Source of the DNA: an uncultured Candidatus Melainabacteria bacterium
GTDB taxonomy: Bacteria > Cyanobacteriota > Vampirovibrionia > Gastranaerophilales > Gastranaerophilaceae
Assembly (NCBI GenBank): GCA_934718275.1
Contig: CAKUZD010000002.1
Span: 217,858-281,857 of the forward strand
Direction of reading: 5' to 3'
DNA length: 64,000 nucleotides
This document shows, in pieces, positions 10,283-62,660 of the stretch. Position 1 is the stretch's first letter, and every line of letters begins with the position of its first letter. A program made the position numbers and the translations under genes. The notes beneath the pieces were generated by a model that was not told where the DNA came from, did no database searches, and worked only from the letters and a program-made list of their open reading frames with translations.

Positions 10283-11011
10283 ATGAAAAAAGCTTTTACT
10301 TTTGCTGAAACTTTAATTACAATAGGTATTATTGGGGTTGTTGCAGTTATGACAATGCCGGTTATTGTGCAAAACTATAGAGCTAAAGTATTAGAAACTG
10401 CATTCAAAAAAAGTACAAGCGCATTATATCAAGCATTTGAACTTACAAAACAAGAATTAGGAACAGATGATATATATCAATATTATGTTGTGTATGATGA
10501 AATGGCAAATACTTACTTAAATGCTCATGAATTCGAAGCTGTATTTGAAAAGAACTTGAAAGTAGTTAGTCAATATAAATCTTCTTTTTATCCAATATAT
10601 AATTATAATAAATCTAAATTGATAACTGCTAATATCGGAAACGATTATCCAAATGCTACCAAAATTCTTGCAGATGGTAGCTCTTATGGAATTCATACTA
10701 ATTCTGATACGAATAGGATTGCAATACATGTATATATTGATACAAATGGGCCGTATAAAAAACCAAATCAATATGGGCATGATATATTCCAATTTCAAAT
10801 ACGTAAAGATAACAAGCTAACTCCGGTTAAAATGACTAAAAGTTATTCAGAAGGAGATTATGAAAGTGGCTCTCCGGTGATGGAATTAAAGGGTTATCCT
10901 TGTTCAACAAAAAATAAACAAGCTTCAAATGGAGCAGGGTGCGCATATTATGCCTTAAATAATATAAATCCTGATGACAATACAAAAAAATATTGGCAAA
11001 ATTTACCTTAA
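10283..11011 (+). CDS. prepilin-type N-terminal cleavage/methylation domain protein (type IV pilin / pseudopilin-like)
   Basis: MKKAFTFAETLITIGIIGVVAVMTMP N-terminus. C-terminal motif DTNGPYKKPNQYGHDIFQFQI is shared with the other two pilin-like ORFs. Confidence 0.85.
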   Translation: MKKAFTFAETLITIGIIGVVAVMTMPVIVQNYRAKVLETAFKKSTSALYQAFELTKQELGTDDIYQYYVVYDEMANTYLNAHEFEAVFEKNLKVVSQYKSSFYPIYNYNKSKLITANIGNDYPNATKILADGSSYGIHTNSDTNRIAIHVYIDTNGPYKKPNQYGHDIFQFQIRKDNKLTPVKMTKSYSEGDYESGSPVMELKGYPCSTKNKQASNGAGCAYYALNNINPDDNTKKYWQNLP

Positions 11012-23863: not shown

Positions 23864-25753
23864 ATGAATTTCTTTGACAAACTAAAGGATATATATAAAC
23901 AGGTTTCCGAGGTAGAAAGCACAATCTATAGCGGCAAGCAGGATTATTTAGAAATTTATGAGCGCAATCTTCAATTAGAAAAAGAGATTAAGGAACGCAC
24001 CCATGAACTCAATATTGCAAATAAAAGAATGCTAACTTTGCAACATATTTGGGATATGATGAATGCTTCTCGCCCGTTACAAAGTGTTCTTGAAACTATT
24101 GTGAACAGTATCCAAGGAGAACTTGGCTATCTTCACTGTAATATTATAAAAAAATGTGAAGATGAAACAGGAACTTACTTATCTGTTTTAGCTCAGTCAA
24201 ATGATGCGTCAATTAAATATGTAGATAAGCTTATAAAAGGGCCAATTCAAGCTAAAAAATTGGTTTATAGTAAAGAAAGTATTTACGCAAAATCTGCAGA
24301 AGAACGAAGAATAATGCAAACATCTGATGTGGGCGGGACTCTAAAATATGTAATTCCGGAAATTTCTCAAGATATTATTGAAGAATTAAATAATGAAAAT
24401 CCTTGTAAATCAATAATTACAGTTCCGTTGTATTCAAGAAATTTTCATTATGGGTGGTTTAATGTATTTTCATCAAGAAAAGAAATGACCAACGGGGAAA
24501 CAGATTTTTTAACGATTTTTGCTCAACAAATAGAGATGGCAATAACTATTGCAGATTTGTTTGAGGAAGTAAAAGCACAAGCTGTTACGGATAGTCTTAC
24601 CGGTTTATATAACAGGAGATATTTTGAAGAATATTTAAAAAAAGAAGTAACTCGTGCTATGCGACAACAACAAGCATTTAGTGTAATTGGACTTGATTTA
24701 GACCATCTTAAGCAAATTAATGATGAATATGGACATGCTTATGGTGATTTGGCAATAAAAACAGTTGCAAATGTTTTAAAGAAAAATGCTCGTTCTATTG
24801 ATACTGCAGCTCGTATGGGAGGAGAAGAATTTAATGTAATACTTCCGGGAGTTGATTCAAATGGTGCTATGATTGCCGCGGAAAGAATTAGAAAAGCTCT
24901 TGAGAACGAAAGACTTGACACAATTGGGCGTATTACTGCAAGTATTGGAGTTGCAACATTTTTAGAACATTCGGATAATATTGAAGATATCCTTGAACTT
25001 ACAGATCAGGCTATGTATCAATCAAAACGAAATGGGCGTAATCAGGTGACTCTTGCTAAACCGATTAATGAAACAAGTTGGCAGGAAGTTGCTATCAATA
25101 CATTTATGGATATTTTGTCAAAACATAATATTCCGCTTAATGCTGAAATTACGGACAATCTTAAAAATAAACTTGAAACAAATGATGTTCCTAAAGAGGC
25201 TTTGTATACTGTTGCTGATATGCTTACTCAAACCTACAATCCGCTACATCATTCCGGAGTTATGAAATCAAAAGTTCAGTTGGCTGTAAGTTTGGCAAAA
25301 CGTTTTGACTTATCTAAAGAAGATATTGATAAACTCAGAATAGCAACTCTTTTATATGATATAGGAAACCTAATGCTTCCTGTTGAGCTTTTACAAAAAA
25401 CAACTCCGTTAACAGAAGAAGAAAGAAATCATATAAAAGAGCACCCGATGATTGCAGCTCAAGAAATTCTTAAACCGATAAGTTATATTCAAGATATAAT
25501 TCCGATAATAGAACACCATCATGAAAATTGGGATGGTTCAGGTTATCCTTCAAAAATTGCAAGGGAAGAAATTCCAATGACATCTCAAATTATTCTGATT
25601 GTGGATGCTTATTTTGCGCTTACAGAACCAAGAACATATCGGGCAGAGTTAACTCCGAAACAGGCAATTGAACTAATTAAACAAGATGCCGGTAAAAAAT
25701 GGAATTCTGCTCTTGTAGAAGAATTTATTTCATTGATTGATCACGATATATAA
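23864..25753 (+). CDS. GAF-like sensor / GGDEF diguanylate cyclase / HD-GYP phosphodiesterase protein
   Basis: DSLTGLYNRRYF, RMGGEEF (GGEEF active site) and HHENWDGSGYP (HD-GYP). Confidence 0.85.
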   Translation: MNFFDKLKDIYKQVSEVESTIYSGKQDYLEIYERNLQLEKEIKERTHELNIANKRMLTLQHIWDMMNASRPLQSVLETIVNSIQGELGYLHCNIIKKCEDETGTYLSVLAQSNDASIKYVDKLIKGPIQAKKLVYSKESIYAKSAEERRIMQTSDVGGTLKYVIPEISQDIIEELNNENPCKSIITVPLYSRNFHYGWFNVFSSRKEMTNGETDFLTIFAQQIEMAITIADLFEEVKAQAVTDSLTGLYNRRYFEEYLKKEVTRAMRQQQAFSVIGLDLDHLKQINDEYGHAYGDLAIKTVANVLKKNARSIDTAARMGGEEFNVILPGVDSNGAMIAAERIRKALENERLDTIGRITASIGVATFLEHSDNIEDILELTDQAMYQSKRNGRNQVTLAKPINETSWQEVAINTFMDILSKHNIPLNAEITDNLKNKLETNDVPKEALYTVADMLTQTYNPLHHSGVMKSKVQLAVSLAKRFDLSKEDIDKLRIATLLYDIGNLMLPVELLQKTTPLTEEERNHIKEHPMIAAQEILKPISYIQDIIPIIEHHHENWDGSGYPSKIAREEIPMTSQIILIVDAYFALTEPRTYRAELTPKQAIELIKQDAGKKWNSALVEEFISLIDHDI

Positions 25754-27379: not shown

Positions 27380-27814
27380 TTATTCTTCGTAAATCATTTG
27401 CTCATATTTAAGAGGAAGAAACCCCTGACGTTTATATACTTCAATTGCTTTTTGGTTACTTGGACAGAATTCTAAGCGGAGTCTTGCTGCATTTGAATTT
27501 TCTTTTATAAAGTTGAAGAAATTACTTCCAATCCCTTTAGAGCGGAATTCAGGTAATATATAAATTTCGTCAATCCATAAAACTTCTCCACCTGCTTCTT
27601 GTGAAAAAGTTTTTGCCAAAAGAGCATAACCGGCTTTTTCTCCATCTTTTTCAAAAATATAACATTGAGCGTAAGTTTCAGACTTTATTAATTCGTTAAA
27701 AGTTTTTATAATATTTTTTTCAGGAATACTGTGCAAAACGGCATCAGAGTTATAAAAAGCTTTTACTGTGTTAATATAAAAATCTTTGTCGGTTTCATTT
27801 ATTTTTCTAATCAT
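27380..27814 (-). CDS. GNAT-family N-acetyltransferase
   Basis: 144 aa. Acetyl-CoA pocket pattern PEFRSKGIGSNFF. Confidence 0.8.
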   Translation of the reverse strand: MIRKINETDKDFYINTVKAFYNSDAVLHSIPEKNIIKTFNELIKSETYAQCYIFEKDGEKAGYALLAKTFSQEAGGEVLWIDEIYILPEFRSKGIGSNFFNFIKENSNAARLRLEFCPSNQKAIEVYKRQGFLPLKYEQMIYEE

Positions 27815-27823
27815 ATATAGATT

Positions 27824-28723
27824 TTAACATGCAAAATTTTTGTTTGAAGACATTTTTTTTGAAATAATCAAAAATACACCGAATAAAATTAAAATTACAC
27901 CTATTGAAATTCTTATGGTAAGTTGTTCGTGAAAAAATATTATTCCGAAAAATATTGCTGTTAAAGGTTCTAATGCTCCAAGAATAGCTGTGTTTGTCGA
28001 ACCGATGAGTTTTATAGCTATCGTGATTGTTTCAAGTGAAATTATTGTAGGAAATAATGCCAAACCAATTGCGAACAGCCATGATGTTGTTTTGGGTAAT
28101 ATCTGTAATTCTGTACAAAATTTTAAGTTTATTATATAAACCAATAACCCAAATAGCATTACGTAGAAACTCAACCTGGCACTGTTCATATCTTTGACGG
28201 ACTTAATTGTTCTGACTCCAACTATATATAATGCATATAACAAGGCGGATGAAAGAACTGTTAATATTCCTCTTATATTTAATGTTATTCCGTCTTTCCC
28301 GTTATACAAAAGAAAAATTCCAAATGAGGTTAATAGAATTGCTAATATAACAGTTTTTGTTATTTTTTCTTTAAAAAAGATTGTCATTATTATAGTAACA
28401 ATTACAGGATATATAAATAATATTGTGCAAGCAATTCCGGCTTCTATATAGCGAAAAGCGTCAAATAGAGTGAGCGAAGATAATGAAAAGAATATTCCTA
28501 ATAAGAAGATAGGTATGAATTCTTTCTTAGATAATTTTAAAGAAATCTTTTTAAAGCATTTTAGCCAAACAAAATATATTAAAACTGCGAAAAAGTACCT
28601 GTAAAATAATACAGAATTTACACCAATTCCTTGAGCGTATAATGGTAAGCCAAACAGGGGGTTCATTCCGTAACTTGTAGAGGCTATAATTCCGTTAAGT
28701 ATTCCTTTGGTGCTATTTTTCAT
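27824..28723 (-). CDS. EamA/DMT-family transporter
   Basis: About 10 hydrophobic segments in two EamA-like halves. ATG 28723 (MKNSTKGILNG) preferred, because the ORF extension to 28909 reads through repeat DNA and the C10 tract. Confidence 0.8.
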   Translation of the reverse strand: MKNSTKGILNGIIASTSYGMNPLFGLPLYAQGIGVNSVLFYRYFFAVLIYFVWLKCFKKISLKLSKKEFIPIFLLGIFFSLSSLTLFDAFRYIEAGIACTILFIYPVIVTIIMTIFFKEKITKTVILAILLTSFGIFLLYNGKDGITLNIRGILTVLSSALLYALYIVGVRTIKSVKDMNSARLSFYVMLFGLLVYIINLKFCTELQILPKTTSWLFAIGLALFPTIISLETITIAIKLIGSTNTAILGALEPLTAIFFGIIFFHEQLTIRISIGVILILFGVFLIISKKMSSNKNFAC

Positions 28724-28871
28724 AATTCTGACTTTCAGGCTCATTATAACATAGATTAATTTCTCGGTTAAATATAATATTGAAAAATCATAAAAAATAT
28801 GCGATAATGAAAAATGTAATATTGAAAAGAGAGAGGATTTTATGAAAAGATTTGAATTTGAGAACGTTCTC

Positions 28872-28881
28872 GGGGGGGGGG
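28872..28881. repeat. homopolymeric G10 tract
   Basis: Ten consecutive G between an RBS-ATG (28842) and the start-less pilin ORF. Confidence 0.95.
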
Positions 28882-29080
28882 CAATCGCCGAATAACCTCT
28901 CATAATCATAGTTTTGGACTGGTTGAAACATTAAAAAGGTCATCTTTTTATAATGGGGCATTAAAAAGATTCTTCGCTATCGCTCAGAATGTCGATAACA
29001 ATAGAAGGTGTAATATTATTTGTGCCTTCACGCTTGCAGAGGTCTTAATCACTCTTGGCATTATTGGTGTTGTTGCAGCT

Positions 29081-29722
29081 ATGACAATGCCTGCATTGAT
29101 ACATAGTTACCAAAAGCAGGTTACTGTAAATAAATTAAAAAAGGCTTATTCAATATTGGGACAAATTGCGCAACAAGGTGTAAGTGAGAATTCTCCTGCT
29201 GAAATAATGGCAGGAGATAGTGTAGATGCTGCTACAACCAAAGATTTTTTTGAGAACTATTGGTTAAAATATTTTAAGGGTGCAGAGGTTTACAATAAAA
29301 AAATTTTTTTAAATGATGGAGATCCATTATATAGACAATATAATGGAAATTTAGGGAGTACGCATATATATACAGACTATAGTTTTGGTCGAATATTTTT
29401 TGCAACAGCCGATAATATGACGTTTTATCTAAATATTATGAATTGGGTTAATACAAAGTATGATGATGATGGAAATTTAGTATCGCAAGATGCGGTATTT
29501 TCTTCACGCCAAGATGTTACAGTAGATATTAATGGGATAAATCCCCCAAATACTTACGGAAAAGATGCTTTTTGCTTTATTGTAGACTTTAAAGATGGAG
29601 TTGTTCGGCCTTACGGTTATGGTAGTACATCTTCGGAAATAAATGATAGTTGTAGCAAAAATGGTGGTGGAGGCTTCTGTGCTGCTAAAATAATTCGCGA
29701 AGGATGGAAAATAAATTATTAG
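29081..29722 (+). CDS. prepilin-type N-terminal domain protein, conserved N-terminus lies upstream of the first ATG (frame open from 28862)
   Basis: Codons 29024-29080 encode AFTLAEVLITLGIIGVVAA in frame, but no ATG/GTG/TTG precedes them. C-terminal DINGINPPNTYGKDAFCFIV motif is shared with the other pilin-like ORFs. Confidence 0.6.
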   Translation: MTMPALIHSYQKQVTVNKLKKAYSILGQIAQQGVSENSPAEIMAGDSVDAATTKDFFENYWLKYFKGAEVYNKKIFLNDGDPLYRQYNGNLGSTHIYTDYSFGRIFFATADNMTFYLNIMNWVNTKYDDDGNLVSQDAVFSSRQDVTVDINGINPPNTYGKDAFCFIVDFKDGVVRPYGYGSTSSEINDSCSKNGGGGFCAAKIIREGWKINY

Positions 29723-33365: not shown

Positions 33366-33790
33366 ATTATTCACTCCGCTCACAATGACCATGATTATTG
33401 TGCTATCGCCCTTTAGGGGAGAGAGAGTAGGCGTTTGTGCAACGCGAATTACGCATACGAGAGAGGGGGGTGACTTGATTCAGAGTCTATTAACTATATT
33501 CTCTCACCTTAAATAGTTGTCCTTCGCGGACGGCGGGAACTTTTTGTGAAAAAAGTGTTGTAGGGCGGTGGTACCTACCCCGCCAATATTGTAAATCATC
33601 AGCTGGATTCTTTCGGGCAAAGCCCTCAGAATGACAACATTATTGTTTCGCATTCGCTCACAATGACTGTAAAATCTTATTGCCCTATCGCCTTAAAGCC
33701 TTATTGCCCATAGATAAGGTCTTTTCACGTTTCACTTCTCACTTTTCATTAAAGTTTCACTTTATAGCCTTATCGCCTTCGTCTTATTAA
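33366..33790. repeat. mosaic of short hairpin repeat modules (R1)
   Basis: Reverse complement of 59631-59828 plus 60097-60290, module for module. Confidence 0.85.
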
Positions 33791-33795
33791 GACAA

Positions 33796-34530
33796 TTATT
33801 TAAATTTTTCGTTTGGTGAATATTTTTCGTAAGTTAATTTTCCGGTACGCATTGTATTATAAATTTCACCATAACCAATATGTTGGTTTACTTTATTTGG
33901 GGTAACCGTAAAACTATAACAATCATAACCATATTGATTGCGTTTTTTATCTCCATTTATATCAAAAAATATTTCTGCACATTGTTGAGCCTGATATGGT
34001 TTTGGAACAAGTTCTCCATCTTCTTGTTTTATATAGTTCCCATTTTCATCTTTTTCATAAGACATGTACGTCACCATACAATCTCCGGAATAATTTTTTT
34101 GTCCCATATATACAATTGTTCCATCATTCAAAATAGCACGTTCTTTTGAGCCTAGTTTTTCTTGTTGTATATTTCCAAAGCCATCGTTTGTCTTTCTTTT
34201 GGGCAATATAATTTTATCTTTTCCACCGCAACCATTTGAAGTTGAAGAACATCTTTCAACTACGTTCAAATATTTTATAAAACCATCAAGCTGCTCGGCT
34301 GCCGTGTATTTTGGATTGAATTGTTCGGAATAATCGGAAGTCCCAAGTTCGGCTTTTCTCATTTCAATAGCGTTTGCCAATTCTGAATATGTGCGTTTTA
34401 ATTTGTTTACCATAACAACTTCTTCATATTTGCTAATTAAGGCCGGAAGCGTTAGTGCTGCAACAACACCAATTACTCCTAAAGTTATCAAAACCTCTGC
34501 CAATGTAAAAGCTTTTTTGTTTTTAATCAT
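33796..34530 (-). CDS. prepilin-type N-terminal cleavage/methylation domain protein (pilin-like)
   Basis: MIKNKKAFTLAEVLITLGVIGVVAALTLPALI from ATG 34530 (ORF open to 34572). Contains the FFDINGDKKRNQYGYDCYSFTV motif. Confidence 0.85.
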   Translation of the reverse strand: MIKNKKAFTLAEVLITLGVIGVVAALTLPALISKYEEVVMVNKLKRTYSELANAIEMRKAELGTSDYSEQFNPKYTAAEQLDGFIKYLNVVERCSSTSNGCGGKDKIILPKRKTNDGFGNIQQEKLGSKERAILNDGTIVYMGQKNYSGDCMVTYMSYEKDENGNYIKQEDGELVPKPYQAQQCAEIFFDINGDKKRNQYGYDCYSFTVTPNKVNQHIGYGEIYNTMRTGKLTYEKYSPNEKFK

Positions 34531-54581: not shown

Positions 54582-56375
54582 TTACGCGTTTCTTTGGAAA
54601 AATCCTGCAATTTCTTTGTGTGGAAAGAATTTTACAACCGGACGTCCATGCGGACAAGTGTATGGCATTTTGGTTGTTCGCCATTTTTTTACAATTTCTT
54701 GCATTTGCCAAGTTGAAAGCTTCTGACCTGCTTTTACGGAAGCTTTACAAGCTGTGGTGATTAAAATGTGTTCCTCTAGTCTGTCAATATTTCCTTCTAT
54801 ATTTTCTAAAATATCGGCAAGAATTTCTTTAGGATTAACTTTTGCTATCATTTGAGGAACTTTTCTGAAAATAAGTTCATTTTCTTTCAAAAATTCTATA
54901 CCAAAACCAAATTTTTCAAATTTATTAATGTTTTCCTTAATTAGTTCTGCTTCGGTGCTAGAAACTGGCACAACATCCGACACGAATAACATTTGAGAAA
55001 CTATATTTTTTTCTGACATAAGTTTTTCATAAATGTATCTTTCTTCTGCAATATGTTGGTCAATAATTTCTAGTCCATCTTCTTTTTCAACAAGAATATA
55101 TGTATTTTTGTATTGCCCAATAATATTTTCTTCAGGTTCTTGCTCTTTTTCTGTCGGGATAAAAAATTTGTGTTGTTCAATTTGTTCTTCTTGTTTTTGA
55201 GAAAATTTTTCTTCTTCCTCTTGCATTAATTTGTCAGAAACATAGATAGTGTCTTCTTTTTTGTCAAAAAATATATCGCCGGAACTTTCGAGCTTTGGTT
55301 GTACAAAATCTATAACATTGTTTTGTGTATGTTGAGGAGTTTGCGAAAACTGTTGTGGGTCAAATGCTCTAGAGGATTGCCGTTCTACATAATTTGCAAG
55401 TCCTGCTTGAATTGATGTGAAAATAAAGTTAAAAATTTGGTTTGTATTTTTGTACCGAACTTCTTTTTTGGTCGGGTGAACATTTACGTCAACATCTGCA
55501 GGTGGAAGTTCCAAATTTAACACAACAAAAGGATATTTGCCATTTGCAATCAAACTTTTATATGCAGTGTCGATAGCCTTTTGAAAAACCGGGCATTTAA
55601 CGGTTCTCCCGTTTATATAAATATGATACCCTTTTTTGCTTGAACGCGTATAGTTTGGTGTGCTTACATATCCGCTGATTTTTAACCCTGCAAGTTGGTC
55701 TGTTTTTAGAACTTCTTTTAAATTTGAAATTATATCTGCAGAATAAACCTCTTTTACTGTTTGTAAAAGATTATTTTGTCCTGATGTTTTTAAGACGGTT
55801 TTTCCATTTTTTTTCAATTCTAAAGAACATTCAGGATGGGCTAAGGCGATTGACTGGACAAGTTCTTGAATATAAGAAAATTCAGTGTTTGAACTTTTTA
55901 AAAATTTCAAACGAGCAGGAATATTATAAAATAAATCCTTTATATCCATAATAGTGCCGATTGCGCAACCTGTTTCAGTTTGTTTAACTTCTGAGTTTTC
56001 ACATTTAACTTTTGTTCCTGTATCAAAATCCACCGTTCTTGTTGTACAAGTTAGTTTGGAAATTGAAATTATGCTGGATAACGCTTCCCCGCGAAATCCT
56101 AGCGTATGAATATTAAATAAGTCATCGTCAGTTGCTATTTTGCTTGTTGCATGTTTTGAAAAAGCAAGCATAATATCATCAGGGTATATACCGCAACCGT
56201 TATCGGCAACTCTAATATCTCTACAATCATTGTTTATTTCAATACTAACTTTGGTTGAGCCTGCATCTATAGAGTTTTCAACTAATTCCTTTACAACAGA
56301 TGCCGGTCGTTCAATTACTTCCCCCGCTGCAATTTGGTTAATTAAATGTTTTGAAAGTTGCTTTATTCTCGCCAT
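54582..56375 (-). CDS. mutL: DNA mismatch repair protein MutL (endonuclease-type)
   Basis: N-terminal IAAGEVIERPASVVKELVENSIDAG. C-terminal DQHIAEERYIYE (DQHA-x2-E-x4-E-like) and CPHGRP. Confidence 0.9.
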   Translation of the reverse strand: MARIKQLSKHLINQIAAGEVIERPASVVKELVENSIDAGSTKVSIEINNDCRDIRVADNGCGIYPDDIMLAFSKHATSKIATDDDLFNIHTLGFRGEALSSIISISKLTCTTRTVDFDTGTKVKCENSEVKQTETGCAIGTIMDIKDLFYNIPARLKFLKSSNTEFSYIQELVQSIALAHPECSLELKKNGKTVLKTSGQNNLLQTVKEVYSADIISNLKEVLKTDQLAGLKISGYVSTPNYTRSSKKGYHIYINGRTVKCPVFQKAIDTAYKSLIANGKYPFVVLNLELPPADVDVNVHPTKKEVRYKNTNQIFNFIFTSIQAGLANYVERQSSRAFDPQQFSQTPQHTQNNVIDFVQPKLESSGDIFFDKKEDTIYVSDKLMQEEEEKFSQKQEEQIEQHKFFIPTEKEQEPEENIIGQYKNTYILVEKEDGLEIIDQHIAEERYIYEKLMSEKNIVSQMLFVSDVVPVSSTEAELIKENINKFEKFGFGIEFLKENELIFRKVPQMIAKVNPKEILADILENIEGNIDRLEEHILITTACKASVKAGQKLSTWQMQEIVKKWRTTKMPYTCPHGRPVVKFFPHKEIAGFFQRNA

Positions 56376-59630: not shown

Positions 59631-60320
59631 AAAAGTGAGAAGTGAGAAGTGAGAAGTGAAAAGACCTTATCTATGGGCAATAAGGCTTTAAGGCGATAGG
59701 GCAATAAGATTTTACAGTCATTGTGAGCGAATGCGAAACAATAATGTCGTCATTCTGAGGGCTTTGCCCGAAAGAATCCAGCTGATTAATTTCAATATTG
59801 GCGGGGTAGGTACCACCGCCCTACAAGACTAAAATGAAAAATTAGTTATCGTCATTCTGAGCGGAGCGAAGAATCTCCTAAACATCTTACCAACCATGCG
59901 ATGTTTCGGCTTCGCCTCAACATGACAAAACTTTCAGGCAGATGAGGGGCTAATGCCACGATAGCGGAATGAGCAATAACTTGTTAGTGAAATTAACAAC
60001 AAAAACAGTCATTGTTTGAGCGAAGCGAGTTTGGCTGTTTTTATATTGAACTTACTAGTTATTAGTGAATGAAGCGTGTGGATGGTTTTGTGGAACTTTT
60101 TTCACAAAAAGTTCCCGCTGTCCGCGAAGGACAACTATTTAAGGTGAGAGAATATAATTGATAGACTCTGAATCAAGTCAAGCCCCTCTCTCGTATGCGT
60201 AATTCGCGTTGCTCAAACGCCTACTCTCTCTCCCCTAAAGGGCGAGAGCACAATAATCATGGCCATTCTGAGCGGAGTGAAGAAATGGACTTCTTACTTT
60301 TCACCATTCATTTTTTACTT
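59631..60320. repeat. mosaic of short hairpin repeat modules (R2)
   Basis: Heptads at 59635-59663, 9-mer units, cattgtgagcgaatgcgaaacaatg-type hairpins, and the ~250-bp module at 59886-60133. See findings. Confidence 0.85.
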
Positions 60321-61856: not shown

Positions 61857-61887
61857 AGACACGCCCCCCGTGTCTCTTTTTTTTTAG
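61857..61887 (+). terminator. rho-independent terminator after sepF
   Basis: gagacacg-cccc-cgtgtctc stem followed by a T9 run. Confidence 0.85.
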
Positions 61888-61901
61888 GCTTTTTATGTTT
61901 G

Positions 61902-62660
61902 GGGGGGGGGAAGGAAGGTTATGTCATGTTGAGGTGAAGTCGAAACATCGCATGGATGGAAAGATATTCAGTAGATTCTTCGCTCTGCTCAGAATGACGA
62001 TAACTAATTTTTCATTTTAGTCTTGTAGGGCGGTGGCACTGCCCCGCCAATATTGAAATTAATCAGCTGGATTCTTTCGGGCAAAGCCCTCAGAATGACA
62101 TCATTATTGTTTCGCATTCGCTCACAATGACTGTAACTATAATGTTCTCGCCCCTTGAGGGAGAGAAGAAATTTCTTAGCGAATAATTTGAGCTTAGAAA
62201 TTTCAGAGAGGGGGTTGTGGTAATAACCTTCTTATTTCCTTATAATTGGTTGTCCTTCGCGGACAGCGGGAACTTTTTGTGAAAAAAGTTCCACAAAACC
62301 ATCCACACGCTTCATTCACTAATAACTGGTAAGTTCAATAAGAAAACGGTCAAACTCGCTTCGCTCAAACAATGACTGTTTTTGTCGTTAATTTCACTAA
62401 CAAGTTATTGCTCATTCCGCTATCGTGGCATTAGCCCCTCATCTGCCTGAAAGTTTTGTCATGTTGAAGCGAAGCAGAAACATCGCATGGTTGGAGAATT
62501 TAAGACCTCACCCTACCATGCTTGGTTGTTCGCGTTTAACGGGTCTATACAGTCTTGCACTTTTGCAAGCCTGTTCGCCCTCAGTTCACAATCCGCCTCA
62601 GAATGACTTTTCTGTAATCACTTATTGCCTGGTGTCTTAACGTCTTATTGCTTTAACAGT
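61902..62660. repeat. mosaic of short hairpin repeat modules (R3), starts with a G10 tract
   Basis: G10 at 61902-61911. Contains the modules of R2 in inverted orientation and shuffled order, including the ~250-bp module at 62251-62497. Confidence 0.85.

What the first reader, a model, noticed from the sequence alone, without database searches (positions are those of the whole stretch)
28842..29722. G10 tract between an RBS-ATG and a start-less pilin ORF: candidate phase-variable pilin (OFF frame here)
The third pilin-like ORF encodes the conserved prepilin N-terminus (CAFTLAEVLITLGIIGVVAAMTMP, 29021-29092). Its frame is open from 28862 and contains no ATG, GTG or TTG before that motif. The first ATG (29081) would delete the hydrophobic N-terminal helix. 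Upstream, AGAGAGGA-tttt-ATG (28842) starts a 17-codon ORF, MKRFEFENVLGGGAIAE-stop, that runs through G10 (28872-28881). By my frame count, G11 or G8 would fuse this start to the pilin frame with no intervening stop. That gives a product of about 294 aa with an unusually long ~61-aa leader. This is the classic slipped-strand ON/OFF layout. The tract also lies ~150 nt upstream of the divergent EamA gene, so a promoter-spacing effect is an alternative.
Basis: partly seen in the sequence, partly recalled or inferred. Interest (0 to 1): 0.65.

Follow-up and report, generated by a model that had tools for sequence, protein, structure and literature searches.

The report
Phase-variable pilin gene, switched off
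A run of ten G's separates the start codon of a pilin-like gene in an uncultured gut bacterium (Gastranaerophilales) from the gene body, one base short of in-frame; the same layout recurs in many related pilin genes and a few are in frame, so it is very probably a classical slipped-strand on/off switch in a group where none had been described.

Summary
SD-ATG (28842), G10 (28872-28881), a 17-codon dead-end ORF, and a start-less prepilin frame open from 28862 are all present. G11 or G8 would give a 293- or 292-aa fusion with a 62-aa leader.

- **Recurring module:** promoter, SD-ATG, 7-10 codons, G/C tract of 9-13, an open leader of 11-158 codons, then AFTLAEV. It recurs in about 20 Gastranaerophilales pilin loci: 1069 leader codons have 0 stops, against 80 and 100 in the other frames.
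- **In-frame relatives exist:** G11 (L144), C13 (L145), an interrupted 11-nt tract (L142), and a 35-nt deletion that removes the tract at an otherwise 99% identical locus (L143).
- **The gene is under purifying selection:** dN/dS is 0.26-0.35 overall and 0.00-0.04 in the N-terminal helix, so it is not a pseudogene.
- **Rejected:** no promoter-spacing effect, and weak support for an ATT start.

Two caveats. All eight copies of this particular module are G10. And 17 of 18 out-of-frame loci sit exactly one base short of ON. That means a strong bias toward OFF, or programmed -1 frameshifting or transcriptional slippage, which reads or RNA would be needed to exclude.

The mechanism is a known kind (Neisseria pilC, Bifidobacterium breve pili) in a new lineage and gene family.

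The parts
28780..28808 (+). Sigma-70-like promoter TTGAAA-17-GATAAT with TG extension, about 34 nt upstream of the ATG
   Evidence: 10 of 12 matches, TG present. The same sequence is conserved upstream of the module in L021, L149, L150 and L151.
28830..28837 (+). Shine-Dalgarno AGAGAGGA, 4 nt before the start codon
   Evidence: An SD (AGAGAGGA, AAGGAG or GGAGG) lies 4-9 nt before the ATG in the homologous modules whose upstream sequence is visible and which I checked; L144 and L147 have no such motif in that position.
28842..28895 (+). Start codon ATG (28842-44) and the 17-codon OFF-state ORF MKRFEFENVLGGGAIAE, ending at TAA 28893-95. The first 10 codons are the true N-terminus of the prepilin leader.
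   Evidence: Homologous short basic N-termini (MKKNLFKLI, MKRFEIRSAL, MRRFNLRRAL and others) occur in relatives.
28872..28881 (+). G10 homopolymeric tract, the switch. G11, G8 or G14 joins the ATG frame to the pilin frame.
   Evidence: G10 is also present in L018-L021 and L149-L151.
28883..29026 (+). Leader-coding segment in the pilin frame (NRRITSHNHSFGLVETLKRSSFYNGALKRFFAIAQNVDNNRRCNIICA). It has no stop and no start codon, and ends at Ala(-1) of the predicted prepilin cleavage site.
   Evidence: It has 0 stops, against 3 and 7 in the other frames. It is open in all 7 diverged copies. dN/dS is 0.35-0.74, a weak constraint.
28967..28999 (+). One copy of a dispersed REP-like intergenic repeat (gattcttcgct..gctcagaatgtcgataac), embedded in frame in the leader
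   Evidence: The other 11 copies in the window are all intergenic.
29004..29017 (+). SD-like GAAGGTG followed 4 nt later by ATT (29015): the candidate non-canonical start, judged unlikely
   Evidence: Sequence. The SD is degraded to GAAAGTG in L020 and L150, and the first ATT is ACT in L020, L149 and L150.
29024..29092 (+). Prepilin-type N-terminal cleavage/methylation motif A|FTLAE plus the hydrophobic helix (AFTLAEVLITLGIIGVVAAMTMP)
   Evidence: TIGR02532 scores 17.1 bits against a cut-off of 16.3 at residues 62-82 of the G11 fusion. Pfam N_methyl is sub-threshold. dN/dS is 0.00-0.04 over the first 50 mature codons.
29027..29722 (+). Mature pilin-like protein (231 aa, DUF6613-type head) plus the stop codon TAG
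   Evidence: The AF2 model has pLDDT 88.5, with helix 5-56 followed by a beta-sheet domain. dN/dS is 0.26-0.35.
29081..29722 (+). The truncated 213-aa ORF that public gene calls record for this gene. It starts inside the hydrophobic helix and is an annotation artefact of the OFF state.
   Evidence: P0001-P0006 all start at MTMPALIHSY.
27824..28744 (-). Divergent EamA-family transporter gene. It is a neighbour, not part of the switch.
   Evidence: Pfam EamA, E = 1.4e-34. Its best promoter candidate lies at 28771-28743, about 100 nt from the tract.

Best explanation
This is a translational phase-variation (contingency) switch in a type IV pilin-like gene of a Gastranaerophilales gut bacterium.

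Transcription starts from the promoter at about 28780-28808. Ribosomes start at SD-ATG 28842 and read ten codons into the G tract.

- **At G10 (this window):** ribosomes stay in frame 0 and stop after 17 codons. No pilin is made, and the untranslated downstream mRNA is probably subject to polarity.
- **After gain of one G or loss of two:** slipped-strand mispairing at replication would do this. The same ribosomes then read a 62-aa leader that runs into the A|FTLAE prepilin cleavage site. Prepilin peptidase would remove the whole leader, including the tract-encoded Gly run, so the mature pilin is the same whatever the tract length.

The module is shared by many paralogous and orthologous pilin genes. 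Most are parked one base short of ON, which suggests a repertoire in which few pilins are expressed at a time.

**Shown here:** the anatomy, the recurrence of the module, in-frame and out-of-frame versions of homologous loci, an open leader frame, and purifying selection on the gene body.

**Inferred:** that changes happen at high frequency and reversibly within a population, that the long leader is cleaved, and that the product is assembled into a filament.
For: 1. **Anatomy and frame arithmetic**.

2. **Recurring module.** It consists of a promoter, SD-ATG, 21-30 nt, a G or C tract of 9-13, and a leader of 11-158 codons. The module recurs in loci that were retrieved without regard to frame.

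3. **Open leader frame.** The pilin frame always closes 7-16 nt upstream of the tract. From the tract to the motif it is open in every case: 1069 codons with 0 stops, against 80 and 100 stops in the other two frames.

4. **DNA-level ON versions of homologous modules:**
   - L144 is ATG+27 nt+G11, against G10 in L009, L072, L085, L087 and L147.
   - L145 has C13, against C12 in L005.
   - L142 has CCCCTCCCCCC (11 nt), against C10 in L004, at a locus 95.7% identical.
   - L143 lacks 35 nt including the G10 of L001. Its flanks are 99.7% and 98.6% identical, and the deletion restores the frame.

5. **Purifying selection.** Among three G10 copies, dN/dS is 0.26-0.35 for the mature protein and 0.00-0.04 for its first 50 codons. 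The gene must therefore be expressed at times.

6. **Tract base.** The tracts are G or C, the usual choice of SSM contingency loci in A+T-rich genomes (background knowledge). A and T runs up to 10 are common in this window, but G/C runs of 7 or more occur only twice.

7. **Published precedents:**
   - Neisseria pilC has homo-G tracts in the signal-peptide region (PMC5354566).
   - B. breve sortase pili have a short upstream ORF with start and signal, then a G tract, then the pilin ORF. The reference genome is OFF and in-frame mutants are piliated (PMC9187656).
Against: - No length variation was seen at this module. All eight copies (window, L018-L021, L149-L151) are G10, although their flanks differ by up to about 15%.
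- No ON version of this orthologue is on record among about 48 contigs.
- Across the family, 17 of 18 out-of-frame loci are exactly ON-1, including tracts of 9 and 12. Only one is ON+1. An unbiased stochastic switch would not give this.
- A MutL homologue is present, so tract mutability may be modest.
- A 62-aa leader is far longer than known prepilin leaders, and in relatives the leader reaches about 170 aa. Cleavage of such leaders is untested.
- No read-level data could be examined.
Confidence: 0.62

Rival explanations
1. Programmed recoding rather than mutation. The DNA stays at G10, and a fixed fraction of products enters the pilin frame. This would happen by -1 ribosomal frameshifting on G GGG GGG (or C CCC CCC), or by RNA polymerase adding one nucleotide on the homopolymer. 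The result would be constitutive low-level pilin. The in-frame alleles would be occasional 'fixed-ON' mutants.
For: - 17 of 18 out-of-frame loci need exactly +1 nt, which equals the -1 frame. This holds although tract length (9, 10, 12) and ATG-to-tract distance (21-30 nt) vary.
- G10 is invariant in eight diverged copies of this module.
- The gene is under purifying selection while never seen ON.
- Runs of 9-10 match the length of the RNA-DNA hybrid needed for slippage without mismatch (background knowledge).
Against: - Pure-tract ON alleles (G11, C13) exist, so length does change at the DNA level.
- One ON+1 locus exists (L148).
- No stimulatory RNA structure is predicted (z = 0.21).
- A ribosomal slippery site needs only 7 nt, not 9-13.
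- Known bacterial transcriptional slippage uses A/T runs (PMC1088944, listed). Such runs are plentiful in this genome but are not the ones used here.
Confidence: 0.2
2. The tract and upstream ORF are irrelevant to pilin synthesis. Translation would start at the non-canonical ATT (29015 or 29018), served by the SD-like GAAGGTG (29004-10), giving a very short leader (M-I-C-A|F).
For: GAAGGTG lies 4 nt before ATT 29015, with its AGG core 6 nt upstream. The second ATT is conserved in all seven copies.
Against: - The SD is degraded in L020 and L150, and the first ATT is ACT in L020, L149 and L150.
- Other tract-bearing loci have no SD or start near the motif.
- This reading leaves several things unexplained: the stop-free leader frames of up to 158 codons, the conserved promoter/SD/ATG/tract module, and the in-frame alleles.
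- The resulting leader would lack the usual basic residues.
Confidence: 0.05
3. A silent or archival pilin cassette. It would serve mainly as a recombination donor or acceptor, as Neisseria pilS copies do, rather than being expressed from its own start.
For: - The 5' module (promoter to about codon 50 of the mature protein) is shared by genes with different C-terminal domains.
- At the same chromosomal site, L151 carries a different head domain.
- dS is much lower in the 5' part (0.09-0.27) than in the 3' part (0.58-0.87), as expected from gene conversion.
Against: - It has its own conserved promoter, SD and ATG. pilS copies lack these and also lack the conserved N-terminus.
- In-frame alleles use exactly this ATG.
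- Recombination and phase variation are not mutually exclusive.
Confidence: 0.05
4. A simple frameshifted pseudogene, or a homopolymer sequencing or assembly error.
For: - The gene is out of frame in every copy seen.
- Homopolymers are error-prone in sequencing.
Against: - The same G10 is present in at least 8 independent assemblies.
- dN/dS is 0.26-0.35 overall and close to 0 in the helix.
- The leader frame is kept open.
- The architecture is conserved across distant relatives.
Confidence: 0.04
5. The tract tunes a promoter, through spacing or UP-element effects, for the divergent EamA gene or for the pilin transcript.
For: The tract lies in a 280-nt divergent intergenic region. A weak minus-strand promoter-like site (28864-28837) abuts it.
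Against: - The tract lies in no -35/-10 spacer.
- It sits downstream of the conserved plus-strand promoter, inside an ORF.
- The module occurs next to unrelated genes in L021, L001/L143 and L145.
Confidence: 0.02

Closest known systems
Neisseria gonorrhoeae/meningitidis pilC1/pilC2 phase variation (homo-G tract in the signal-peptide-coding region; PMC5354566)
   Same: - A poly-G tract sits just after the start codon, within the part of the ORF whose product is removed during export.
- Frameshifts give ON/OFF without altering the mature protein.
- The gene belongs to the type IV pilus system.
   Different: - PilC is a tip adhesin or assembly factor with a Sec signal peptide.
- Here the gene is a pilin-like subunit with a prepilin (class III) leader that is abnormally long (62 aa).
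- The organism is a non-photosynthetic cyanobacterial relative.
- Many paralogues carry the module.
Bifidobacterium breve UCC2003 sortase-dependent pilus G-tract switch (bbr_0113a/b, bbr_1889a/b; PMC9187656)
   Same: - It occurs in a gut commensal.
- A short upstream ORF carries the promoter, SD, start and export signal.
- A G tract separates it from a start-less pilin ORF.
- The reference genome is OFF.
- Annotation pipelines call a spurious internal start.
   Different: - Those are sortase (LPXTG) pili of a Gram-positive bacterium, not prepilin-type subunits.
- Replication slippage was measured there by maximum-depth sequencing. Here it is only inferred from differences between assemblies.
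Campylobacter/Helicobacter poly-G/C contingency loci (e.g. PMC6321876, PMC2823697; listed, not read)
   Same: - The genome is A+T-rich, and G/C tracts of about 9-11 nt are rare.
- The tracts are concentrated in surface-structure genes and sit within the reading frame.
   Different: - Those organisms lack MutS/MutL-type mismatch repair (background knowledge). This window encodes MutL.
- As far as I recall, a strong ON-1 skew has not been described for those loci.
Programmed transcriptional slippage / -1 frameshifting (dnaX, IS elements; PMC1088944, listed, not read)
   Same: A homopolymer run of about the RNA-DNA hybrid length joins two frames that have a conserved, fixed -1 relation.
   Different: - Known bacterial cases use A/T runs or heptameric slippery sites with stimulators.
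- No stimulator is predicted here.
- DNA-level length variants exist here.
Neisseria pilE/pilS antigenic variation
   Same: - There are many pilin paralogues with a conserved 5' part and variable 3' parts.
- There are signs of 5'-end homogenisation and of head-domain replacement at one site.
   Different: pilS copies lack a promoter, a start codon and the N-terminal region. These copies keep all three.

Membership tests
Homopolymeric-tract (SSR) translational phase-variable contingency locus | A mononucleotide G/C tract of about 8 nt or more lies inside the reading frame, downstream of a functional start | tested here: met
   G10 lies at 28872-81, 30 nt after SD-ATG 28842. A promoter is present upstream.
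Homopolymeric-tract (SSR) translational phase-variable contingency locus | A +/-1 change in tract length toggles between the full-length product and a truncated peptide | tested here: met
   In silico, G8, G11 and G14 give 292-294 aa. Other lengths give 16-21 aa.
Homopolymeric-tract (SSR) translational phase-variable contingency locus | Tract-length polymorphism at the same locus among populations or strains (this locus) | tested here: not met
   The window, L018, L019, L020, L021, L149, L150 and L151 are all G10. No ON orthologue is on record. The look-ups were by the OFF-state product, which biases against finding ON but not against finding G9 or G12.
Homopolymeric-tract (SSR) translational phase-variable contingency locus | Tract-length polymorphism among homologous loci of the family, including ON and OFF states | tested here: met
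   G9, G10, G11 and G12, and C10, C12 and C13, were all seen. L144 (G11) and L145 (C13) are ON. L142 versus L004, and L143 versus L001, are same-locus ON/OFF pairs.
Homopolymeric-tract (SSR) translational phase-variable contingency locus | High-frequency, reversible switching within a clonal population | not testable with these tools
   This needs raw reads or cultures. Only consensus assemblies are available.
Type IV pilin-like proteins (prepilin-type N-terminal cleavage/methylation domain, TIGR02532 / PF07963) | A [G/A]|F-x-x-x-E motif followed by a hydrophobic segment of about 20 residues | tested here: met
   A|FTLAE-VLITLGIIGVVAAMTMP. TIGR02532 scores 17.1 bits against a cut-off of 16.3. 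PF07963 scores 16.3 against a cut-off of 21.2, so it is sub-threshold.
Type IV pilin-like proteins (prepilin-type N-terminal cleavage/methylation domain, TIGR02532 / PF07963) | A short (about 5-30 aa) basic leader peptide directly preceding the motif | tested here: not met
   The only start-codon-led leader is 62 aa. Relatives have leaders of 17-170 aa. Two other pilin-like genes in the window have normal leaders, MKKA|F and MIKNKKA|F.
Type IV pilin-like proteins (prepilin-type N-terminal cleavage/methylation domain, TIGR02532 / PF07963) | Pilin fold: an alpha-1 helix of about 50 residues packed on a beta-sheet head | tested here: inconclusive
   The AF2 model (pLDDT 88.5) has helix 5-56 followed by a beta-sheet domain. 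Foldseek against the PDB gave no match with E below 0.1. The head is Pfam DUF6613 (precomputed hits).
Type IV pilin-like proteins (prepilin-type N-terminal cleavage/methylation domain, TIGR02532 / PF07963) | Prepilin peptidase and a pilus or pseudopilus assembly machinery in the same genome | tested here: inconclusive
   None was found among 28 ORFs scanned in the 64-kb window. The rest of the genome is not available.
Programmed -1 ribosomal frameshift / transcriptional slippage site | A fixed frame relation (-1 frame / +1 nt) conserved across homologues | tested here: met
   17 of 18 out-of-frame loci.
Programmed -1 ribosomal frameshift / transcriptional slippage site | A downstream stimulatory RNA structure, or another conserved stimulator | tested here: not met
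   The fold of 28815-29035 has a z-score of 0.21. No Rfam family matches the region.
Programmed -1 ribosomal frameshift / transcriptional slippage site | The product or RNA is heterogeneous while the DNA is homogeneous | not testable with these tools
   This needs paired DNA and RNA data, or proteomics.
pilS-type silent pilin cassette | Lacks a promoter, RBS, start codon and the conserved N-terminal coding region | tested here: not met
   The promoter, SD, ATG and N-terminal helix are all present and conserved.

The most novel reading that the evidence does not exclude
The G/C tract may be a programmed recoding site shared by a whole family of prepilin genes. The DNA would be kept one base short of in-frame: 17 of 18 out-of-frame loci are so, and G10 is invariant in eight diverged copies. 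Pilin would then be made by -1 ribosomal frameshifting on G GGG GGG / C CCC CCC, or by +1-nt transcriptional slippage on a G/C homopolymer. Either route sets a low, fixed stoichiometry for many minor pilins. This would be the first G/C-run recoding signal used systematically in bacterial surface-filament genes.
Probability: 0.18. Interest if true: 0.85.

Novelty: new member of a known kind. Interest (0 to 1): 0.6.

Why it matters
- **First evidence in this group.** Gastranaerophilales are uncultured, widespread gut relatives of Cyanobacteria, and their surface biology is unknown. This is the first evidence I could find that they run a multi-gene, switchable repertoire of type IV pilin-like proteins. 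Two literature searches found no report. Such a repertoire is the kind of system that pathogens and some commensals use to vary adhesion, phage receptors or immune targets.
- **Annotation error.** Public gene calls for this family are systematically wrong at the 5' end: they are either truncated or use pseudo-starts.
- **Leader length.** Prepilin leaders here can be 60-170 aa and contain translated intergenic repeats. This stretches the accepted definition of a prepilin.
- **The ON-1 skew.** It is an unusually clean natural data set for asking whether a homopolymer 'switch' is mutational or a recoding signal.

Tried and rejected
- **Rfam and tRNA scans:** nothing lies near the locus.
- **RNA folding of 28815-29035:** no more stable than shuffles, so there is no evidence for a riboswitch, attenuator or frameshift stimulator.
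- **Promoter scan:** the tract is not in any spacer, so the promoter-spacing idea was dropped.
- **ATT start with an SD-like GAAGGTG:** considered, but found not conserved.
- **JGI metagenome scan with G8+CAATCGC:** 115 of 120 matches were unrelated high-GC environmental DNA. Only 5 were pilin loci.
- **Foldseek of the AF2 model against the PDB:** no significant match, so fold-level confirmation of 'pilin' failed.
- **Counting ON states from database proteins:** this proved unreliable. Gene callers use accidental ATG or TTG codons in the pilin frame just upstream of the tract (L147, L148).
- **Palindrome GGTGCTACGCACGTAGCACC:** it accompanies C-tracts in relatives but is absent from the window.
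- **Pilus machinery:** searched for in the window and none found.
- **Same-locus ON variant of this orthologue:** none on record.
Full report
**1. Observation**

- A Shine-Dalgarno sequence, AGAGAGGA (28830-37), is followed after 4 nt by ATG at 28842. Ten codons later comes G10 (28872-81).
- In the G10 state the ORF ends after 17 codons (MKRFEFENVLGGGAIAE, TAA at 28893).
- The frame that encodes the prepilin N-terminus (CAFTLAEVLITLGIIGVVAAMTMP, 29021-92) is open from 28862, just after a TGA at 28859. It has no ATG, GTG or TTG before ATG 29081, which lies inside the hydrophobic helix.
- Simulated G8, G11 and G14 fuse the two frames into 292-, 293- and 294-aa products with a 62-aa leader. All other lengths from 7 to 13 give 16-21-aa peptides.
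- The window is 32.5% G+C. Its only G/C runs of 7 or more are two G10 tracts (28872 and 61901). By my arithmetic about 0.002 would be expected by chance.
- Two further public assemblies with the identical gene also have G10 (L018, L019), so this is not an assembly slip.

**2. Organism and gene**

- Relatives of the mature protein are found in Candidatus Gastranaerophilales / Melainabacteria MAGs from animal and human guts. The best match is 55% identical. The window's own genome is not among the species representatives.
- The G11 fusion passes NCBIfam TIGR02532 (prepilin-type cleavage/methylation domain) at residues 62-82: 17.1 bits against a cut-off of 16.3.
- The head domain carries precomputed Pfam hits to DUF6613.
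- An AlphaFold model built on 40 homologues (pLDDT 88.5, pTM 0.81) has a 52-residue N-terminal helix followed by a beta-sheet domain, the pilin 'lollipop' layout. Foldseek found no significant PDB match, so fold-level membership stays open.
- Two other pilin-like genes in the window have ordinary starts and short leaders: MKKA|FTFAE at 10283, and MIKNKKA|FTLAE at 34530 on the minus strand, in the ORF listed as 34572-33796.
- No pilus machinery was found in the window.
- Neighbours are a divergent EamA transporter, a GNAT acetyltransferase, IspD and ThiL upstream. A nucleotidyltransferase and MlaA lie downstream.

**3. The layout recurs**

This is the decisive evidence. Loci were fetched by similarity to the mature pilin or by the pattern G8+CAATCGC, in both cases without regard to frame. 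They show the same module again and again:
- a TTGAAA-17-TATAAT-like promoter;
- SD-ATG;
- 7-10 codons of a basic peptide (MKKNLFKLI, MKRFEIRSAL, MRRFNLRRAL, MINN..IA and others);
- a G or C tract of 9-13;
- a leader of 11-158 codons with no start codon;
- KK/RK-x-A|FTLAEV.

In every case the pilin frame closes 7-16 nt upstream of the tract and stays open from the tract to the motif. Over 17 loci that is 1069 leader codons with 0 stops, against 80 and 100 stops in the other two frames. Four leaders have P(open) of 0.001 or less and four more 0.0015-0.0035 under shuffling.

The leaders are poorly conserved as protein and contain translated copies of dispersed REP-like intergenic repeats. In the window the copy lies at 28967-99, while the other 11 copies are all intergenic. 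What is selected is therefore an open frame, not a particular peptide. This is what one expects if ribosomes must travel from the upstream ATG to the prepilin motif.

**4. ON versions exist at the DNA level**

- L144 has the same ATG+27-nt module as L009, L072, L085, L087 and L147 (all G10, out of frame), but carries G11 and is in frame.
- L145 has C13 in frame, against C12 out of frame in L005.
- L142 is 95.7% identical to L004 over 1058 nt. It carries CCCCTCCCCCC (11 nt, interrupted) instead of C10, and is in frame.
- L143 is the L001 locus, with flanks 99.7% and 98.6% identical. It lacks 35 nt that include the G10, and this also restores the frame from the same ATG.

So the upstream ATG is the real start, and the predicted ON length (tract + 1) is right. 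Both reversible-looking (pure tract) and locked (interrupted or deleted) ON alleles occur.

**5. The gene is alive**

Three G10 copies sit in three different genomic contexts (window, L020, L021). Among them:
- dN/dS is 0.26-0.35 for the mature protein;
- it is 0.00-0.04 for the first 50 mature codons;
- it is 0.35-0.74 for the leader.

A gene that was simply broken would not show this. dS is much lower in the 5' module (0.09-0.27) than in the 3' part (0.58-0.87). L151, from a Hadza metagenome, has the same chromosomal site (GNAT-EamA) and the same 5' module, but a different head domain. Both points suggest recombination that homogenises the 5' ends and swaps heads.

**6. Alternatives**

- **Promoter spacing.** The tract lies in no predicted -35/-10 spacer. 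It sits downstream of the conserved plus-strand promoter (28780-28808) and inside an ORF. The module also occurs beside unrelated genes. Rejected.
- **ATT start.** GAAGGTG (29004-10) followed by ATT 29015 is a plausible-looking site. However, the SD is degraded in L020 and L150, and the first ATT is ACT in L020, L149 and L150. Other family members have nothing comparable near the motif. Unlikely.
- **Structured RNA.** No Rfam family matches, and folding gives z = 0.21.

**7. What does not fit a simple stochastic switch**

- All eight copies of this particular module are G10 (window, L018-L021, L149-L151), although flanks differ by up to about 15%.
- No ON orthologue is on record among about 48 contigs.
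- Across the family, 17 loci with a visible SD-ATG are exactly one base short of ON. These include tracts of 9 (L078) and 12 (L005), and ATG-to-tract distances of 21-30 nt. Only L148 (G12) is one base over, and two pure-tract loci are ON.

If the tract is hypermutable, each locus is an independent draw, and this skew needs an explanation. One possibility is a mutational bias, with contraction toward about 10. Another is selection for keeping each of many pilins mostly OFF but one step from ON. If the tract is not hypermutable, the conserved -1 relation looks like programmed recoding: -1 ribosomal frameshifting on G GGG GGG / C CCC CCC, or +1-nt transcriptional slippage.

Points against recoding as the main route:
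- DNA-level G11 and C13 alleles exist.
- The tracts are G/C rather than the A/T runs used by known bacterial transcriptional slippage.
- The tracts are longer than a ribosomal slippery site needs.
- No stimulator is predicted.

I put mutational phase variation at about 0.62 and recoding at about 0.2. They are not mutually exclusive: leaky expression from the ON-1 state is possible. A MutL homologue in the window suggests that mismatch repair is present, which would lower but not abolish slippage at G10.

**8. Comparison with known systems**

- The closest functional analogue is Neisseria pilC, where homo-G tracts in the signal-peptide region give RecA-independent ON/OFF switching (PMC5354566).
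- An equally close analogue is the Bifidobacterium breve sortase-pilus switch. There, a short upstream ORF with promoter, SD, start and export signal is separated by a G tract from a start-less pilin ORF. The reference genome is OFF, in-frame mutants are piliated, and annotation pipelines call a spurious internal start (PMC9187656).
- The present case shares the logic that the tract-encoded residues are removed with the leader, so tract length never changes the mature protein.
- It differs in the gene family (prepilin-type subunits with a DUF6613 head), the very long leaders, the number of paralogues carrying the module, the lineage, and the ON-1 skew.
- Two full-text searches found no report of pilin phase variation in Melainabacteria or Gastranaerophilales.

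**9. Verdict**

- The mechanism is a known kind in a new lineage and gene family, with an unexplained bias that keeps a more novel recoding reading alive.
- Interest is 0.6.

Noticed in passing
window 61901-61910 (context 61857-62020): A second G10 tract (ATG TTT G10) follows directly after a terminator-like hairpin. It has no SD, and no pilin or long ORF follows in any frame. About 60 nt downstream lies the same REP-like repeat that sits in the pilin leader. It may be a relic of a tract-led pilin 5' module. It would serve as an internal stutter control for read-level work.
   Followed up: partly
window 33378-33672, 59717-60273, 61987-62640, and 28967-28999: A dispersed REP-like repeat family (core GCTCAGAATGAC, plus other units such as CTCGCCCCTTGAGGGAGAG and GTGAGAAGTGAGAAGTGAAA) forms intergenic clusters. 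One copy lies in frame inside the pilin leader. In relatives the same repeat types are translated as parts of leaders (SPLEGEKKFLSE, VFSRFTSHFS, TETVHSPLTTHNSLKK).
   Followed up: partly
L151 1-2553 versus window 27400-29722: At the same chromosomal site (GNAT, EamA), a Hadza gut metagenome contig carries the same promoter, uORF, G10, leader and N-terminal helix. Its C-terminal pilin head is different (P0079). This suggests head-domain replacement by recombination. L020 and L021 carry the module in other genomic contexts.
   Followed up: partly
L001-L151 (tract-bearing loci): 17 of 18 out-of-frame loci are exactly one base short of in-frame, irrespective of tract length (9, 10 or 12) and of ATG-to-tract distance. 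17 of the 21 distinct pure tracts seen at pilin loci are exactly 10 nt long.
   Followed up: partly
L072 ~330-395; L010 ~650-707; L002/L004 just after the C tract; P0009, P0012-P0015, P0020, P0024, P0061, P0066, P0100, P0113: Leaders of relatives contain duplicated pseudo-N-termini (AFTLAE-GATHVAxCxxxRK-AFTLAEV, or tandem GFTLAEVFSVHPKGGRKH units). These are built around a near-perfect palindrome, GGTGCT(A/T)CGCACGTAGC(A/C)CC. This looks like small insertions with target duplication at the cleavage motif. The palindrome is not present in the window.
   Followed up: partly
uORF peptides in L144, L147, P0041, L072, L009: The short peptides before the tract (MKKKFRIAF, MRNLFKCAF, MKRFGIRRAF, MQEEFRRVF) resemble canonical prepilin leaders that end in -AF. 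This suggests that the tract plus long leader arose by insertion at the original cleavage site.
   Followed up: no
P0001-P0006, P0047 (L146/L147), P0052 (L148): Public gene calls for this family are systematically wrong at the 5' end. OFF genes are called from an internal Met inside the helix, or from accidental ATG or TTG codons in the pilin frame a few nt upstream of the tract.
   Followed up: yes
L019, L020, L072, L144, L146, L147 (contig ends 16-125 nt from the tract): Several metagenome contigs begin just upstream of the tract. Assembly may break there because of tract heterogeneity, or because the 5' module is repeated among paralogues.
   Followed up: no
window 54585-56375 (-): An intact MutL homologue (DNA_mis_repair, MutL_C and HATPase domains). 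The organism is probably mismatch-repair proficient, which bears on how mutable a G10 tract is.
   Followed up: no
window 23864-25753 (+): A GAF-GGDEF-HD-GYP protein (c-di-GMP turnover) lies 3 kb upstream. c-di-GMP often controls type IV pili, but no link was tested.
   Followed up: no
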